This document shows positions 30,354-46,427 of a stretch of 64,000 nt of DNA, in pieces. Within the stretch, counting starts at the first letter, position 1. Every line of letters starts with the position of its first letter. The DNA comes from Bacteroidota bacterium (lineage in GTDB: Bacteria; Bacteroidota; Bacteroidia; Flavobacteriales; Flavobacteriaceae). A program made the position numbers and the translations under genes. The notes below the pieces were generated by a model. That model saw nothing but the letters and a program-made list of their open reading frames with translations. It had not been told where the DNA came from and ran no database searches. The stretch spans positions 10,624 to 74,623 of the forward strand of contig JBEHYS010000014.1 of NCBI GenBank assembly GCA_048498055.1, given 5' to 3'.

Positions 30354-30437
30354 GGAGAGGTGCCGGAGTGGTAACGGAGCAGATTGCTAATCTGTCGGCG
30401 TGCAAACGTCGCCAGGGTTCGAGTCCCTGTCTCTCCG
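30354..30437 (+). tRNA. tRNA-Ser(GCT)
   Basis: GGAGAGG acceptor, anticodon arm GCAGA-TTGCTAA-TCTGT, long variable arm, GGTTCGAGTCC T arm. Confidence 0.96.
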
Positions 30438-30449
30438 CTGTTTTTTTTT

Positions 30450-30524
30450 CGGGGTGTAGCGTAGCCCGGTCATCGCGCCTGGTTTGGGACCAGGAGGTCG
30501 CAGGTTCGAATCCTGCCACCCCGA
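30450..30524 (+). tRNA. tRNA-Pro(TGG)
   Basis: CGGGGTG/CACCCCG acceptor, anticodon arm CCTGG-TTTGGGA-CCAGG, GGTTCGAATCC. Confidence 0.97.
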
Positions 30525-31022: not shown

Positions 31023-31096
<74 letters not shown>

Positions 31097-44275: not shown

Positions 44276-45127
44276 ATGAAATTACTCGTAGACAGCGGTT
44301 CGACCAAAGCAGACTGGATTTCGATCGACGACAGCGGCAAGGTATTGTTTACCACGCAAACCCTCGGGCTGAATCCCGAAGTGCTCGGCAAGGACCAGAT
44401 CATTGCGCGGCTCGACGACAAGTTCGACATCTCGCACAACAAGAAAAGCGTGACGCACCTGTACTTTTACGGCGCGGGCTGCGGCACCGACCGGATGAAA
44501 AATTTCCTCGCGGGCGTTTTTAAGGAATATTTCCCGACGGCGGTCGTTTCGGTACAGGAAGATACGTATGCCGCCGTGTATGCGACCACGCCGAAAGGCG
44601 AGCAGGCGATCGTCTCGATTTTGGGAACGGGCTCGAACTGTAGTTTTTTTGACGGTATCGTGCTCCACCAGAAAGTTCAGTCTTTGGGCTACATCGCGAT
44701 GGACGATTGCAGCGGCAACCAGTTTGGGCGGCAATTGATCCGCGGCTATTATTTCAACAAAATGCCGAAGGATTTGGCCGAAAAGTTTGAAAAAGCCTAC
44801 GACCTCGACGCGGATACGATCAAGCATCATTTGTACAAAGAACCGAACCCGAACGCGTATCTCGCAACATTCGCGAAATTCCTGATCGAGTACAAGGACG
44901 AAAAATTTTGTCACGACATCATTATTGCGGGCATGGAAGATTTTGTCGAGAACTACATCAAGCAATACGACAATTACGGGGACGTTCTGGTGCATTTCAT
45001 CGGGTCGATCGCTTTCTATCTGAAAGACGAGCTGAAAACCGTCCTCGACAAGCATGATATTTTGCTCGGAAACGTATTGCGCCGGCCGATCGACGGTCTG
45101 ATTGCGTATCATTCAATCAACAAATAA
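44276..45127 (+). CDS. BadF/BadG/BcrA/BcrD-type ATPase (N-acetylglucosamine kinase-like)
   Basis: Motifs DSGSTK, YGAGCG, ILGTGSN and GSIAF. Confidence 0.88.
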   Translation: MKLLVDSGSTKADWISIDDSGKVLFTTQTLGLNPEVLGKDQIIARLDDKFDISHNKKSVTHLYFYGAGCGTDRMKNFLAGVFKEYFPTAVVSVQEDTYAAVYATTPKGEQAIVSILGTGSNCSFFDGIVLHQKVQSLGYIAMDDCSGNQFGRQLIRGYYFNKMPKDLAEKFEKAYDLDADTIKHHLYKEPNPNAYLATFAKFLIEYKDEKFCHDIIIAGMEDFVENYIKQYDNYGDVLVHFIGSIAFYLKDELKTVLDKHDILLGNVLRRPIDGLIAYHSINK

Positions 45128-45495
45128 TGGAAATCGCGATCATTGCCCACGACCGGATGAAAGCCGACATGGTACAGTTCCTGAACAAGAACAAGCAAAT
45201 CCTGCAATCGGAAAACATCAAGCTCATCGCGACCGGAACCACCGGCGGCAAAGCGGAAGCCGTGGGTTTCAAAGTCAAAAAAATGCTTTCGGGCCCGATG
45301 GGCGGCGATGCCCAGATTGCGGCGCGCGTAGCCGAAGGGAAAACCAAAATGGTGCTCTTTTTCAAAGACCCGAATTCGAGCCATGCGCACGAGCCGGATA
45401 TTTCAATGCTGATAAGGGTTTGCGATGTGCATAATATTCCGCTCGCCACTAATGAGGCGACGGCGCAGTTGTTGTTGAATGCTTTGGAAAAATAA
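45127..45495 (+). CDS. mgsA: Methylglyoxal synthase
   Basis: Motifs IAHD, ATGTTG, SGPMGGDAQI and HEPDI. Confidence 0.95.
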   Translation: MEIAIIAHDRMKADMVQFLNKNKQILQSENIKLIATGTTGGKAEAVGFKVKKMLSGPMGGDAQIAARVAEGKTKMVLFFKDPNSSHAHEPDISMLIRVCDVHNIPLATNEATAQLLLNALEK

Positions 45496-45519
45496 ATGTC
45501 GGCGAAAAGCCGACATTTT
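45493..45519 (+). terminator. Hairpin after mgsA
   Basis: AAATGTCGGC-GAAAA-GCCGACATTT followed by T. Confidence 0.7.
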
Positions 45520-46040
45520 GTACTTATCTTCTTTTGTCTGCTAACAAAAGAAGCAAAAATAGCTGAGCGCTAAAATTTCAAACTGAAAAACTACCTCGAA
45601 TTTCCGTTCCGCGTACCAAGCCGCTCGCCTTACAGGCTCGATTCCAGGTACGCTGCCGCTTCAATTCTTCGTTGTTTTTTGAAGTTTGAAATTTCTATGC
45701 GCACTATTTGGAAGGTGTTACTTTATTTTCAGCTCGCTCCGCAGTGCTGAAAATCAAAACCGGAAGTTTTAGTTATGGATAAGCTGATTCTGAGAATTAA
45801 CTTCCGGCGACACGCAGAAGCTCACGCGGCGTTTTTTATTTGCGTAAGATTTTCAAGCTTTATTGCTTGGAAACAAGTCTTGCATGAGCGAAGCGAAAGA
45901 ATAAAGCTGGAGTAACGCCGGAGCGAGCCTGCAAAGGTAAGCGGCTTGCGTTGCGATTAAAGCAATAAACTTAGAAAATCAAACAAATTAAAATGCCGCT
46001 ACCGCCTTTTGCTACTTTGCGGCGAAGCAAAGTAGAAAGA
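45520..46040. other. Unassigned ~520-bp highly base-paired non-coding element with inverted hairpin ends (MITE/REPIN-like or structured ncRNA)
   Basis: At least six helices readable by eye (see findings); no credible ORF. Confidence 0.6.
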
Positions 46041-46043
46041 AAA

Positions 46044-46427
46044 TCACTTCACAGCAATCATCGAAATCTCAACATTAACGTTTTTCGGCAACACCGAAAC
46101 CTGAACCGTTTCCCGGGCCGGAGCGTTTTTTTCATCGAAATAGCTACCGTAAACCGAATTGATTTTTGCAAAATCGTTCATGTCGGTAATGAAAATCGTG
46201 GTTTTCACGACGTGCGCGAAATCCATATCGGCGGCGTTTAGGACCGCTTTGAGATTTTTCATGACCTGGGTCGTTTCGGCCTCGATGTTGTCAAGCACGA
46301 GTTCGCCGTTATTTTCGGGATCGATCGCAACTTGTCCCGAAGTGAACAGCATATTTTCCGAAAGAACCGCCTGGCTGTACGGCCCGATTGGTGCGGGCGC
46401 TTTGTCGGTGTAAATAATTTTCTTCAT
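46044..46427 (-). CDS. ridA: RidA family reactive-intermediate deaminase
   Basis: Motifs APAPIGPYSQA, PARETVQV and VEISMIA. Confidence 0.93.
   Translation of the reverse strand: MKKIIYTDKAPAPIGPYSQAVLSENMLFTSGQVAIDPENNGELVLDNIEAETTQVMKNLKAVLNAADMDFAHVVKTTIFITDMNDFAKINSVYGSYFDEKNAPARETVQVSVLPKNVNVEISMIAVK

What the first reader, a model, noticed from the sequence alone, without database searches (positions are those of the whole stretch)
45520..46040. ~520-nt non-coding element with extensive pairing, inverted hairpin ends and an internal inverted module
Seen, helices: CTTCTTTTGT/ACAAAAGAAG (~45528-45553); a ~150-nt arm with AAATTTCAAACT/AGTTTGAAATTT (45573/45683) and GCGTACC/GGTACGC (45611/45647); ATTTTCAGC/GCTGAAAAT (45725/45746); CCGGAAGTT/AACTTCCGG (45760/45799); TTTATTGCTT/AAGCAATAAA (45859/45960) extended by GATTTTC/GAAAATC; and CTACTTTGC/GCAAAGTAG (~46012-46034). 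The two end hairpins are imperfect inverted copies (TTTTGCT-T/A-CTTT...CAAA...AG). CAAGCCGCT..CCTT..CAGGCTCG (45617-45640) recurs inverted at ~45925-45949. It lies between the 3' ends of mgsA and ridA, has no ORF and no obvious target duplication. Inference: either a large structured ncRNA or a non-autonomous element recognised through terminal hairpins (REPIN or HUH-type). I cannot assign it to a known family.
Basis: partly seen in the sequence, partly recalled or inferred. Interest (0 to 1): 0.7.

Follow-up and report, generated by a model that had tools for sequence, protein, structure and literature searches.

The report
Structured mobile-type repeat between two genes
The 520-base gene-free stretch is a real, highly folded DNA/RNA element made of two mirror-image copies of a previously uncatalogued repeat that is scattered through Flavobacteria and their phages, most likely a small parasitic (non-autonomous mobile) element rather than one large functional RNA.

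Summary

It is not one RNA. It is a 512-nt composite (45527-46038) of two inverted units around a short centre. Each unit has:
- a 9-10 bp hairpin (TTCTTTTG/CAAAAGAA type);
- a 6-nt loop that pairs with 6 nt lying after an A-rich linker;
- a long imperfect arm with AAGCCGCUC...UCG at its apex.

The element is absent from this junction in about 45 other Flavobacterium species. Eight of the 11 shorter spacers I folded hold a single bidirectional terminator.

Relatives lie at unrelated chromosomal and prophage sites. Contigs often carry several copies, sometimes adjacent, and six other loci show the same composite layout.

A covariance model finds 50 units. In them 89% of cells pair, against 65% after shuffling, and 41 of 50 pairs show double changes. 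The loop-downstream pairing also covaries (0 of 20,000 permutations reach the observed value).

No Rfam family matches. In two relatives Flavo-1 motifs flank the composite. I found no transposase, reverse transcriptase or target duplication.

Best reading: a non-autonomous, structure-constrained mosaic repeat of the MITE/REPIN kind, moved by an unknown enzyme. An RNA role is not excluded.

The parts
45494..45518 (.). Flanking feature, not part of the element. It is the bidirectional intrinsic terminator of the mgsA/ridA junction: AAATGTCGGC-GAAAA-GCCGACATTT, with an A run on one side and a T run on the other.
   Evidence: terminator-like site. Eight of the 11 element-free mgsA-ridA spacers of other Flavobacterium species that I folded hold one such hairpin.
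45527..46038 (.). The whole composite element, 512 nt: unit L, centre, then unit R inverted. The S1 hairpins form the two outer ends.
   Evidence: nhmmer aligns element positions 9-536 with L136 8561-9067 (E 1e-28) and positions 33-270 with L142. Three-way alignment. The same layout occurs in L136, L142, L140, L138, L150 and L155.
45527..45711 (+). Unit L: 5' hairpin with pseudoknot-type pairing, followed by a long imperfect arm.
   Evidence: Covariance model R1 scores 147 bits, E 3e-35, over 45526-45702. The consensus fold of 8 units has 50 pairs, 26 with double changes.
45528..45553 (+). S1 hairpin of unit L: CTTCTTTTGT / loop CTGCTA (45538-45543) / ACAAAAGAAG.
   Evidence: I18. S1 is conserved and covaries across the 50 units, with 98% of cells paired (helix 1).
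45554..45565 (+). A-rich linker CAAAAA (45554-45559) and S2b TAGCTG (45560-45565). S2b pairs with the S1 loop at 5 of 6 positions. This is either an H-type pseudoknot or an alternative helix.
   Evidence: Loop and downstream sequence change together across the family. Permutation test gives 0 of 20,000.
45566..45711 (+). Long arm of unit L, made of outer stems 45573-45590 with 45677-45694 and an apical stem 45611-45617 with 45647-45653. The apical stem encloses conserved AAGCCGCTC (45618-45626), a small hairpin (45627-45637) and TCGATTCCA (45638-45646).
   Evidence: The apical stem is helix 7: 96% of cells paired, and all 5 pairs show double changes.
45722..45757 (+). Central hairpin H3: TTTTCAGC / loop / GCTGAAAA. 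Its loop holds AGCTCGCTC (45731-45739), which resembles the 3' box AGCTTCACTC that closes units in relatives.
   Evidence: H3 is kept with compensation: L142 has TTTTCGGC/GCCGAAAA and L136 has TTTTAGC/GCTAAAA. The 3' box is seen in L141, L171 and the type-B units.
45760..45807 (.). Central hairpin H4: CCGGAAGTT / 30-nt loop / AACTTCCGG. It is specific to the window; I did not see it in L136 or L142.
45823..46038 (-). Unit R, a diverged inverted copy of the unit, read on the - strand.
- S1 is CTACTTTGC / TTCGCC / GCAAAGTAG (46035-46012).
- The linker is CAAAA (46011-46007).
- S2b is GGCGGT (46006-46001).
- The arm runs 45980-45848.
- CAAGCCGCT lies at 45948-45940.
- The box-like AGCTTCTGCG lies at 45822-45813.
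The unit begins 5 nt after the ridA stop codon.
   Evidence: R1 scores 31.5 bits, E 1e-5, over 46037-45870. Alignment with unit L and L039. Inverted repeats I1, I5, I11 and I20.

Best explanation
The stretch is one copy of a non-autonomous, structure-constrained intergenic repeat of Flavobacteriia. It is MITE/REPIN-like and mosaic.

**Shown**
- It is a 512-nt composite of two inverted units around a short centre.
- Each unit has a sharply bounded 5' hairpin (S1) whose loop pairs with a 6-mer after an A-rich linker, then a long imperfect hairpin arm. In many relatives a 3' box (AGCTTCACTC) closes the unit.
- The element is an addition to a junction where eight of the 11 shorter spacers folded in other species hold just a terminator.
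- Units and whole composites occur at unrelated chromosomal and prophage sites, often several per contig.
- Helices are kept through compensatory changes.
- No ORF, transposase, reverse transcriptase or target duplication accompanies it.

**Inferred**
- Units spread, or once spread, by an enzyme encoded elsewhere. That enzyme would recognise the folded S1/pseudoknot end and the 3' box in single-stranded nucleic acid. The logic would resemble that of HUH-type (IS200/IS605, RAYT/REP) or rolling-circle systems.
- The inverted pairing of two units makes a REPIN-like doublet.
- In this window the copy sits between the junction terminator and the ridA stop codon. It is therefore probably carried in the ridA 3' untranslated region, where its long hairpins could affect mRNA processing or stability as a side effect.
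For: 1. The helices are real and better than chance.
2. Insertion. Among 80 Flavobacterium mgsA loci, 52 keep ridA downstream. The spacer ranges from -4 to 3465 nt and is 150 nt or less in 31 of them. Eight of the 11 short spacers that I folded hold one bidirectional terminator. None of the 80 loci contains the element at this site.
3. Dispersed family.
   - A two-block pattern taken from the window and L039 found 34 metagenome contigs, about 24 of them true relatives.
   - Model R1 finds 50 units at E < 1e-5.
   - Neighbouring genes are unrelated: SpoU/OMP, accA/dnaB, pth, the PNPase C-terminal part, and phage terminase/portal.
   - Contigs carry 2-3 copies and adjacent composites (L138, L140, L144). 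One 29.5-kb prophage contig carries at least 7.
4. The composite travels as a block. The window, L136 and L142 align over the left unit, the H3 hairpin and the right-end S1 hairpin at different loci.
5. Structure is constrained.
   - 89.2% of cells pair, against 64.8% after shuffling and 41-51% with slid partners.
   - 41 of 50 pairs show double changes; 0 of 500 shuffles reach the observed values.
   - S1-loop/downstream pairing: 53 Watson-Crick pairs against 37.1 +/- 2.9; 0 of 20,000 permutations.
6. Sharp 5' boundary at the foot of S1. Flanks differ right up to the hairpin. Metatranscriptome contigs start matching at exactly that base.
7. No conserved ORF: tblastx similarity is equal in all six frames. 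No protein recurs next to units in non-syntenic loci, apart from an ATPase-like ORF on three contigs of one sample group.
8. Metagenome run X2 holds the window's own S1/pseudoknot variant (45529-45565, 1 mismatch) in a different context. This suggests further copies in the same or a closely related genome.
Against: - No autonomous partner and no mobilising enzyme was found.
- No filled and empty alleles of the same site among close strains were available, so movement is inferred from distribution only.
- Only one composite occurs in the 64-kb window. Among 80 Flavobacterium mgsA loci only one other unit was seen (L039).
- A pseudoknot-type pairing and a conserved apical loop are more typical of functional RNAs than of classical MITEs.
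- Units are present in metatranscriptome assemblies, so an RNA-level function is not excluded.
- G-U against A-C counts give no strand signal (42 against 80, driven by poorly fitted type-B copies).
- The covariation was counted on an alignment fitted to the model, which favours the structure.
Confidence: 0.6

Rival explanations
1. The units are genes for trans-acting structured RNAs. Each would be an sRNA or protein-bound RNA of about 190 nt with an H-type pseudoknot and a conserved apical loop. Their spread would reflect duplication of useful RNA genes or a mobile RNA gene.
For: - Compensatory changes occur in nearly all helices.
- The loop-downstream pairing has pseudoknot geometry: S1 of 9-10 bp, a 6-nt loop, an A-rich 5-7-nt linker and a 6-nt partner.
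- Invariant AAGCCGCUC...UCG is bracketed by a covarying stem.
- Units are present in metatranscriptome assemblies.
Against: - Nothing upstream of S1 is conserved in most copies, so there is no shared promoter.
- Units lie both sense and antisense to neighbouring genes, including antisense inside a phage operon.
- The arm is interchangeable between several unrelated types while the ends stay constant.
- Inverted doublets and adjacent composites are typical of repeats.
- Wobble pairs show no strand bias.
Confidence: 0.2
2. The units are orphan copies of the template or scaffold RNAs of a reverse-transcriptase system. They would resemble the UG27 reverse-transcriptase ncRNA units described in phages of Bacteroidota, acting with an enzyme encoded elsewhere.
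For: The published verbal description matches. It gives a basal hairpin, a pseudoknot, and a main hairpin interrupted by an asymmetric internal loop whose short conserved motifs bracket the central stem. Unit lengths there are about 149 and 167 nt, and the hosts are phages of Bacteroidota (bioRxiv 10.64898/2026.09.22.753630). Type-B units here are 165-169 nt and lie in prophages.
Against: - No reverse transcriptase was found next to any unit examined.
- Units are dispersed or in inverted pairs, not in tandem arrays within one spacer.
Confidence: 0.08
3. It is a cis-acting part of the mgsA and ridA transcripts, with no mobile history. It would be a set of terminators, RNase processing sites or stabilising hairpins.
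For: Unit R starts 5 nt after the ridA stop codon and has the same orientation as ridA. Unit L follows mgsA in the same orientation. Long imperfect hairpins are plausible RNase III substrates; this rests on general knowledge, for example of Correia elements.
Against: - The junction works without the element in at least 31 species.
- mgsA already has its terminator upstream of unit L.
- Relatives sit in promoter regions, between divergent genes and antisense to operons.
- Any such effect would therefore be a by-product of insertion, not the reason for the family.
Confidence: 0.1
4. It is a chance accumulation of palindromes, or the decayed remnant of a gene.
For: Some genomes do carry inserted genes at this junction: spacers of 1.3-3.5 kb in L029, L043, L044, L059 and L078.
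Against: - z-scores are -4.6 and -4.2.
- Homologues with covariation exist.
- No tblastx or protein signal links it to the inserted genes of other loci.
Confidence: 0.02

Closest known systems
REPINs (REP doublets mobilised by RAYT, an HUH Y1 transposase)
   Same: - Two inverted copies of a palindromic repeat form one larger hairpin-prone, ORF-less intergenic element.
- Copies are dispersed.
- Hairpin pairing is kept by compensatory change.
- There is no target duplication.
- The presumed enzyme is encoded elsewhere.
   Different: - Units are 150-255 nt, against about 20-40 nt for a REP.
- There is no 5' GTAG.
- The end hairpin has an extra loop-to-downstream pairing.
- Arms are modular.
- No RAYT gene was seen, and its absence cannot be tested on a 64-kb window.
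IS200/IS605-derived palindrome-associated elements (PATEs) and their TnpA logic
   Same: - Ends are asymmetric at unit level: a hairpin at one end and a short conserved box at the other.
- There is no target duplication.
- A short segment near the hairpin covaries with a second segment by base pairing. This recalls guide/cleavage-site pairing.
- Many loops read CTTGAT or CTTGAA.
   Different: - Here one partner of the pairing lies in the hairpin loop and the hairpin foot is the element boundary. IS608 has subterminal hairpins 10-19 nt inside the end.
- No conserved target tetranucleotide was found; there is only a T-rich 5' flank.
- No TnpA, TnpB or IscB gene was found.
- The Rfam HEARO and IS605-orfB models do not match.
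Mosaic or hairpin-forming intergenic repeats (BIME, ERIC, Correia, BOX)
   Same: - Modular combinations of several repeat types occur in one spacer. In relatives the units combine with Flavo-1 motifs and with CCCCTCTCC...GGAGAGGGG hairpins.
- They are located between genes.
- They fold as long RNA hairpins when transcribed.
   Different: - There is no sequence relation.
- The elements here are much longer.
- The pseudoknot-type end and the conserved apical motif have no counterpart.
- There is no TA duplication as in Correia elements.
Flavo-1 RNA motif (Rfam RF01705)
   Same: - Same taxon, Flavobacteriia.
- It is a hairpin motif of unknown function.
- In L136 and L142 a Flavo-1 copy lies outside each S1 end of the composite, pointing outward.
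   Different: The window element contains no Flavo-1 match, and the units do not match RF01705. Flavo-1 is 76 nt and has no S1/pseudoknot module.
UG27 reverse-transcriptase-associated ncRNA units (bioRxiv 10.64898/2026.09.22.753630)
   Same: The verbal architecture and size range match, and both occur in phages of Bacteroidota.
   Different: No reverse transcriptase lies nearby and there is no tandem array. Homology could not be tested because neither the model nor the sequences were available.

Membership tests
Any Rfam 15 family (including HEARO, GOLLD, ROOL, OLE, raiA, IS605-orfB, pistol, twister) | Covariance-model match at the gathering score. | tested here: not met
   The window at gathering score gives only 3 tRNAs. 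Region 45300-46300 at E <= 10 gives only weak matches to unrelated families, the best at 24 bits against a cut-off of 55. Relatives give nothing at the units themselves.
Flavo-1 (RF01705) | Match to the RF01705 model. | tested here: not met
   There is no hit in the window. Flavo-1 copies scoring 63-73 bits flank the composite in L136 and L142 but lie outside the units.
Classical MITE (derived from a DDE transposon) | Terminal inverted repeats. | tested here: met
   The outer ends are inverted S1 hairpins: 45547-45558 against 46007-46018, 92% complementary. The same holds in six other composites.
Classical MITE (derived from a DDE transposon) | Target-site duplication flanking the element. | tested here: not met
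   The left flank is GTACTTAT and the right flank is AAAGAAAA, with no direct repeat. None is seen in L136 or L142 either.
Classical MITE (derived from a DDE transposon) | Many copies per genome, and an autonomous IS with the same ends. | tested here: inconclusive
   Relatives show several copies per contig. The window has one composite in 64 kb. No element with an ORF between such ends was seen in any locus held. Whole genomes could not be scanned.
REPIN / REP-RAYT | Inverted doublet of a palindromic repeat that forms a hairpin. | tested here: met
   Units L and R are inverted copies.
REPIN / REP-RAYT | A short REP (about 20-40 nt) with a conserved 5' GTAG, and a RAYT gene in the genome. | tested here: not met
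   Units are 150-255 nt and start with (G/C)TTCTTTTG. The presence of RAYT cannot be tested on a 64-kb window.
IS200/IS605-type (HUH) non-autonomous element | No target duplication, hairpins at the ends, and asymmetric left and right ends. | tested here: met
   Each unit has the S1 hairpin at its 5' end and, in many relatives, an AGCTTCACTC box at its 3' end. No duplication is seen.
IS200/IS605-type (HUH) non-autonomous element | Insertion 3' of a conserved tetra- or pentanucleotide, and a TnpA gene. | tested here: inconclusive
   The 5' flanks mostly end in T (TT, CT or AT), but there is no fixed word. No TnpA was found in the loci held.
UG27 RT-associated ncRNA | A tandem array of units beside a reverse transcriptase and two accessory genes. 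| tested here: not met
   Pfam scans of neighbouring ORFs show terminase, portal, Clp protease and HTH proteins but no RVT domain. Units are dispersed or in inverted pairs.
UG27 RT-associated ncRNA | Match to the UG27 covariance models. | not testable with these tools
   The models and sequences are not in the paper text.
Intrinsic terminator | A G+C-rich hairpin followed by a T run. | tested here: not met
   Only 45494-45518, outside the element, fits. The S1 hairpins are A+T-rich and are followed by CAAAA.

The most novel reading that the evidence does not exclude
The unit is a new class of mobile structured RNA of Flavobacteriia and their phages. It would consist of an H-type pseudoknot, a long arm and an invariant apical loop. 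It would work with a protein encoded elsewhere, either as template or scaffold for a reverse transcriptase of the UG27 kind or as the folded substrate of a new HUH-type enzyme. The already catalogued but unexplained Flavo-1 motif would belong to the same system.
Probability: 0.15. Interest if true: 0.75.

Novelty: new variant of a known kind. Interest (0 to 1): 0.5.

Why it matters
- It adds an uncatalogued, well-supported structured repeat family to Flavobacteriia and their prophages. Non-coding elements in this group are poorly described.
- The family has features unusual for bacterial intergenic repeats: a sharply bounded hairpin end with covarying loop-to-downstream pairing, interchangeable arms between constant ends, and a conserved apical motif.
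- It gives a context for Flavo-1, an Rfam motif whose function has been open since 2010. Here Flavo-1 appears as the outermost inverted module around two relatives of the element. This fits the published observation that Flavo-1 hits lie sense, antisense or outside transcripts (PMC9723704).
- If the mobilising enzyme or an RNA partner were found, it could define a new single-strand-recognising system.
- For annotation, such spacers should not be called sRNA genes on fold energy alone.

Tried and rejected
- **Rfam.** Gathering and E-value scans of the window, the region and 39 relatives' loci gave no family for the units.
- **Self-similarity in the window.** blastn and nhmmer of the element against the window found no other copy.
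- **80 Flavobacterium mgsA loci.** blastn gave nothing. nhmmer gave only L039.
- **Plasmids and phage genomes.** blastn gave no match for the element. A type-B unit gave no match among phages.
- **Viral scan with the 16-mer CCAAGCCGCTCGCYTT.** It gave 50 hits, all unrelated sequence (apparently coding) from G+C-rich contigs.
- **S1-like hairpins with loops CATTGC, ACTCGC, TTACGC or CGAGTC in phage contigs.**
  - They are syntenic phage sequences without the loop-downstream pairing, so I do not count them as members.
  - The CATTGC type would read as coding sequence for an N-terminal signal peptide; this is my reading of the sequence.
  - They were still kept in the permutation test.
- **Search for a recurrent neighbouring protein.** None was found. 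No reverse transcriptase or transposase turned up in Pfam scans.
- **Strand inference from G-U against A-C counts.** Uninformative.
- **Empty-site comparison between related prophages L172 and L186.** The spacers are too diverged.
- **Exact-protein look-ups.** These gave only a 3.9-kb contig of the same strain.
- **RNA-seq.** No RNA run exists for the window organism. Metatranscriptome contigs carry no strand information.
- **Small ORF 45775-45915.** It has no Pfam hit and its frame is not conserved.
Full report
**Observation**

The window comes from a Flavobacterium. Its MgsA protein is 84-91% identical to those of Flavobacterium genomes.

The finding lies in the 548-nt spacer 45496-46043, between two convergent genes:
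- mgsA (45127-45495, + strand; Pfam MGS domain);
- ridA (46044-46427, - strand; Pfam Ribonuc_L-PSP).

So are the inverted recurrence of CAAGCCGCT..CAGGCTCG and the inverted relation of the two end hairpins.

The spacer folds to -174 kcal/mol on the + strand and -171 on the - strand. Dinucleotide shuffles give about -145 +/- 6, so z is -4.6 and -4.2.

The longest ORF is 46 aa. It has no Pfam match. No direct repeat flanks the region.

The hairpin at 45494-45518 is an ordinary bidirectional terminator, not part of the element.

**Not a known RNA family; not repeated in the window**

Rfam 15 finds only three tRNAs in the window at gathering scores. Nothing meaningful appears at E <= 10 in 45300-46300. 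blastn and nhmmer find no second copy in the 64 kb. Plasmid and phage genome collections hold nothing similar.

**It is an addition to this junction**

- I fetched 80 Flavobacterium loci around mgsA. In 52 of them ridA lies downstream.
- The spacer ranges from -4 to 3465 nt and is 150 nt or less in 31.
- I folded 11 of the shorter spacers (42-171 nt). Eight hold a single A-run/hairpin/T-run terminator, the counterpart of 45494-45518.
- None of the 80 loci has the element at this site.
- Longer spacers in other species are not homologous to it and mostly not to each other, so the junction is variable.
- The only exact-protein match in public assemblies is a 3.9-kb contig of the same strain, 99.97% identical.

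**Relatives elsewhere**

nhmmer found one relative among the 80 loci. It lies in L039 (Flavobacterium sp. XGLA_31), between the BadF/BadG-type kinase gene and mgsA, and aligns with element positions 3-204 (E 1e-7). The two share a hairpin ending in AAAAGAA(G/C)CAAAAA and, 56-57 nt further on, CCAAGCCGCTCGC.

A metagenome scan with that two-block pattern returned 34 contigs, where a rough estimate gave about five by chance (no calculation was run). About 24 of them are true relatives.

- **L136:** aligns with element positions 9-536 (E 1e-28).
- **L142:** aligns with positions 33-270 and carries an inverted hairpin at the far end.

Neighbouring genes differ at every site:
- SpoU methylase and an OMP beta-barrel (L136);
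- accA and dnaB (L142);
- OmpH and Tdi1 (L134);
- peptidyl-tRNA hydrolase (L147);
- the C-terminal part of PNPase and an FGE-sulfatase protein (L154).

A scan of viral contigs with the hairpin-plus-linker pattern found further copies in prophages, between terminase, portal and other phage genes. At least seven lie on one 29.5-kb contig.

**Anatomy**

The element is a composite:
- unit L: 45527-45711, + strand;
- centre: 45712-45822, with hairpins H3 (45722-45757) and H4 (45760-45807);
- unit R: 46038-45823, - strand.

Each unit begins with hairpin S1. In unit L this is CTTCTTTTGT / CTGCTA / ACAAAAGAAG. In unit R it is CTACTTTGC / TTCGCC / GCAAAGTAG. An A-rich linker (CAAAA or CAAAAA) follows, then six bases complementary to the S1 loop: TAGCTG in unit L and GGCGGT in unit R.

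The lengths are S1 of 9-10 bp, a 6-nt loop, a 5-7-nt A-rich linker and a 6-nt partner. These fit an H-type pseudoknot, but they also fit two alternative helices. I cannot tell which from sequence alone.

A long imperfect hairpin arm follows. Near its tip a covarying stem (GCGTACC/GGTACGC in unit L) encloses near-invariant AAGCCGCUC, a small variable hairpin, and UCGNYUC.

In L141, L171 and a second arm type ("type B") the unit closes with a box AGCTTCACTC. The window has related words at 45731-45739 (AGCTCGCTC) and, on the - strand, at 45822-45813 (AGCTTCTGCG).

The arm is interchangeable. At least four arm types, and in L172 even a short CCCTCTCC...GGAGAGGG hairpin, sit between the same S1/linker module and the same 3' box.

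Similarity starts exactly at the foot of S1:
- Flanks of different copies differ right up to that base.
- Contigs of four metatranscriptomes begin to match there too.

The composite layout, with S1 hairpins at the outer ends and units facing inward over 500-580 nt, recurs in L136, L142, L140, L138, L150 and L155. L138, L140 and L144 carry adjacent composites.

H3 is conserved with compensation: TTTTCAGC/GCTGAAAA in the window, TTTTCGGC/GCCGAAAA in L142, and TTTTAGC/GCTAAAA in L136.

**Is the structure selected?**

RNAalifold on eight units predicts 50 pairs, 26 of them with double changes. A covariance model built from that alignment (R1) gave:

| Target | Score |
|---|---|
| Window unit L | 147 bits |
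| L039 | 95 bits |
| Window unit R | 31.5 bits (E 1e-5) |
| Rest of the window and the 80 mgsA loci | no convincing match: four short partial hits at E 0.002-0.12, two overlapping the element's own end hairpins, two in L041 and L021 |
| Metagenome and viral loci | 50 units at E < 1e-5 |

On the alignment of those 50 units:
- 89.2% of cells form standard pairs, against 64.8% after shuffling the 3' partners and 41-51% with partners slid by 1-3 columns.
- 41 of 50 pairs show changes on both sides.
- No shuffle out of 500 reaches any observed measure.

The caveat is that this alignment was fitted to the model and the sequences are related.

For the loop-downstream pairing I compared the 12 distinct loop types. 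Four of them I do not regard as members, but I kept them in the test. The observed total is 53 Watson-Crick pairs, against 37.1 +/- 2.9 when loops are permuted among sequences; 0 of 20,000 permutations reach it. The conforming variants are:
- CTTGAA/TTCAAG
- CTTGAT/ATCAAG
- CTTGGC/CCCAAG
- CTGGCA/TGCCGA
- CTGGTG/CACCTG
- CCTGCC/GGCACGG
- CTGCTA/TAGCTG
- TTCGCC/GGCGGT.

Wobble (G-U, 42 cells) against A-C (80 cells) gives no usable strand signal. Most A-C cells come from type-B copies that fit the model poorly.

**What it lacks**

- **ORF:** none is conserved. tblastx similarity between the three composites is equal in all six frames.
- **Neighbouring protein:** none recurs next to units in non-syntenic loci, apart from an ATPase-like ORF on three contigs of one sample group (L138, L140, L164).
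- **Enzyme:** no reverse transcriptase or transposase appears in the Pfam scans of neighbouring ORFs.
- **Target duplication:** none.
- **Orientation rule:** units occur downstream of co-oriented genes (both window units, L039, L139, L154, L162), between divergent genes (L140, L148, L151, L155), and antisense between two genes on the opposite strand in a prophage (L186).

**Link to a catalogued motif**

In L136 and L142 the composite is flanked on each side by a Flavo-1 motif (RF01705, 63-73 bits). Each has its 5' end next to the S1 hairpin and points outward. The window copy has none.

Flavo-1 was proposed in 2010 as a probable non-coding RNA of Bacteroidetes without a known role (PMC2864571). 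A transcriptome study of F. psychrophilum found Flavo-1 hits sense or antisense of transcripts, and many outside transcripts (PMC9723704). Type-B units are likewise often followed by a CCCCTCTCC...GGAGAGGGGTTAGGGG hairpin module. These spacers are therefore mosaics of several repeat modules.

**Interpretation**

The best-supported reading is a non-autonomous, structure-constrained repeat. It has constant ends, an interchangeable middle and sharp boundaries. It sits at unrelated chromosomal and phage sites, with several copies per contig, in inverted doublets and adjacent composites. It has no coding capacity.

Selection for pairing, including a covarying short pairing next to a terminal hairpin, suggests recognition in single-stranded form. 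HUH enzymes recognise IS200/IS605 ends and REPs in this way. That step is inference: I found no enzyme.

In this window the copy lies between the junction terminator and the ridA stop codon. It is probably transcribed as a long ridA 3' untranslated region. Effects on processing or stability are plausible but untested.

A stand-alone RNA function is the main rival. A recent preprint describes UG27 reverse-transcriptase ncRNA units in phages of Bacteroidota in words that fit these units. Here, however, there is no reverse transcriptase nearby and no tandem array, and the UG27 model was not available for a test.

**Verdict**

- The "large single ncRNA" reading is not supported as such.
- The "non-autonomous element with terminal hairpins" reading is supported in kind, but neither its enzyme nor membership of REPINs is shown.
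- The family is absent from Rfam 15, and I found no description of it in the literature searched.
- I rate it a new variant of a known kind, of moderate interest.

Noticed in passing
L136 8480-8555 (-) and 9127-9208 (+); L142 4045-4120 (-) and 4772-4849 (+): Flavo-1 motifs (RF01705, 63-73 bits) flank the composite element on both sides in two unrelated loci. Each has its 5' end towards the S1 hairpin and points outward. This suggests Flavo-1 is a module of mosaic repeats rather than, or as well as, an sRNA gene. Flavo-1 also occurs upstream of the kinase gene in L004 and L012.
   Followed up: partly
window 45539: The only difference in 3920 aligned bases between the window and the same-strain MAG contig (GCA_048498615.1, L081) is T/C at 45539. 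That is the S1-loop position facing the single mismatch of the loop-downstream pairing.
   Followed up: no
L039 3901-3925 and 4001-4025: In Flavobacterium sp. XGLA_31 the first 25 nt of mgsA are duplicated (ATGGAAATAGCAATCATTGCACATG against ATGGAAATAGCAATTATAGCACATG). The copies are separated by a 75-nt insert containing a GGACTGCCGGTGGCAGTCC hairpin. It looks like a small insertion that rebuilt the gene start.
   Followed up: partly
L166, L169, L172, L176, L181, L186, within about 20-40 nt after type-B units: A second repeat module, TTCCCCTCT..GAGAGGGGTTAGGGGTGAGG (a G+C-rich hairpin), recurs next to the units. In L172 5981-6065 it replaces the arm between the S1 module and the 3' box.
   Followed up: no
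L013, L022, L024, L041 (mgsA-ridA spacers of 525-583 nt); L029, L044, L059, L078, L043 (1.5-3.5 kb): The mgsA-ridA junction is a variable spot across Flavobacterium. Several species carry other fillers of about 0.5 kb or inserted genes, none homologous to the window element. No Rfam hit falls in the four ~0.5-kb spacers.
   Followed up: partly
L138, L140, L150, L155, L156, L162: about 50 nt upstream of the S1 hairpin: In one subfamily (A+T-rich contigs, many near-identical copies) a further conserved segment precedes S1 in most but not all copies: CTGTTTTCCGCATTGGGACACCCTAAACACAAATATTTATAAAG. It also forms the link between adjacent composites.
   Followed up: no
window 45888-45894 and 46022-46028; L039 3685-3691: The heptamer GCGAAGC occurs twice in the element and once in the L039 relative. 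It is known from general literature as a very stable DNA mini-hairpin. This may be chance.
   Followed up: no
window 30354-30437, 30450-30524 (+) and 31023-31096 (-): Three tRNA genes are the only Rfam gathering-score matches in the 64-kb window.
   Followed up: no
Run X2 contigs laid on window 45529-45565 and 45995-46038: A metagenome that also holds this strain contains the window's own S1/pseudoknot variant (1 mismatch) and a relative of the right-end hairpin (6 mismatches). Both sit in different sequence contexts, hinting at further copies in this or a closely related genome.
   Followed up: no
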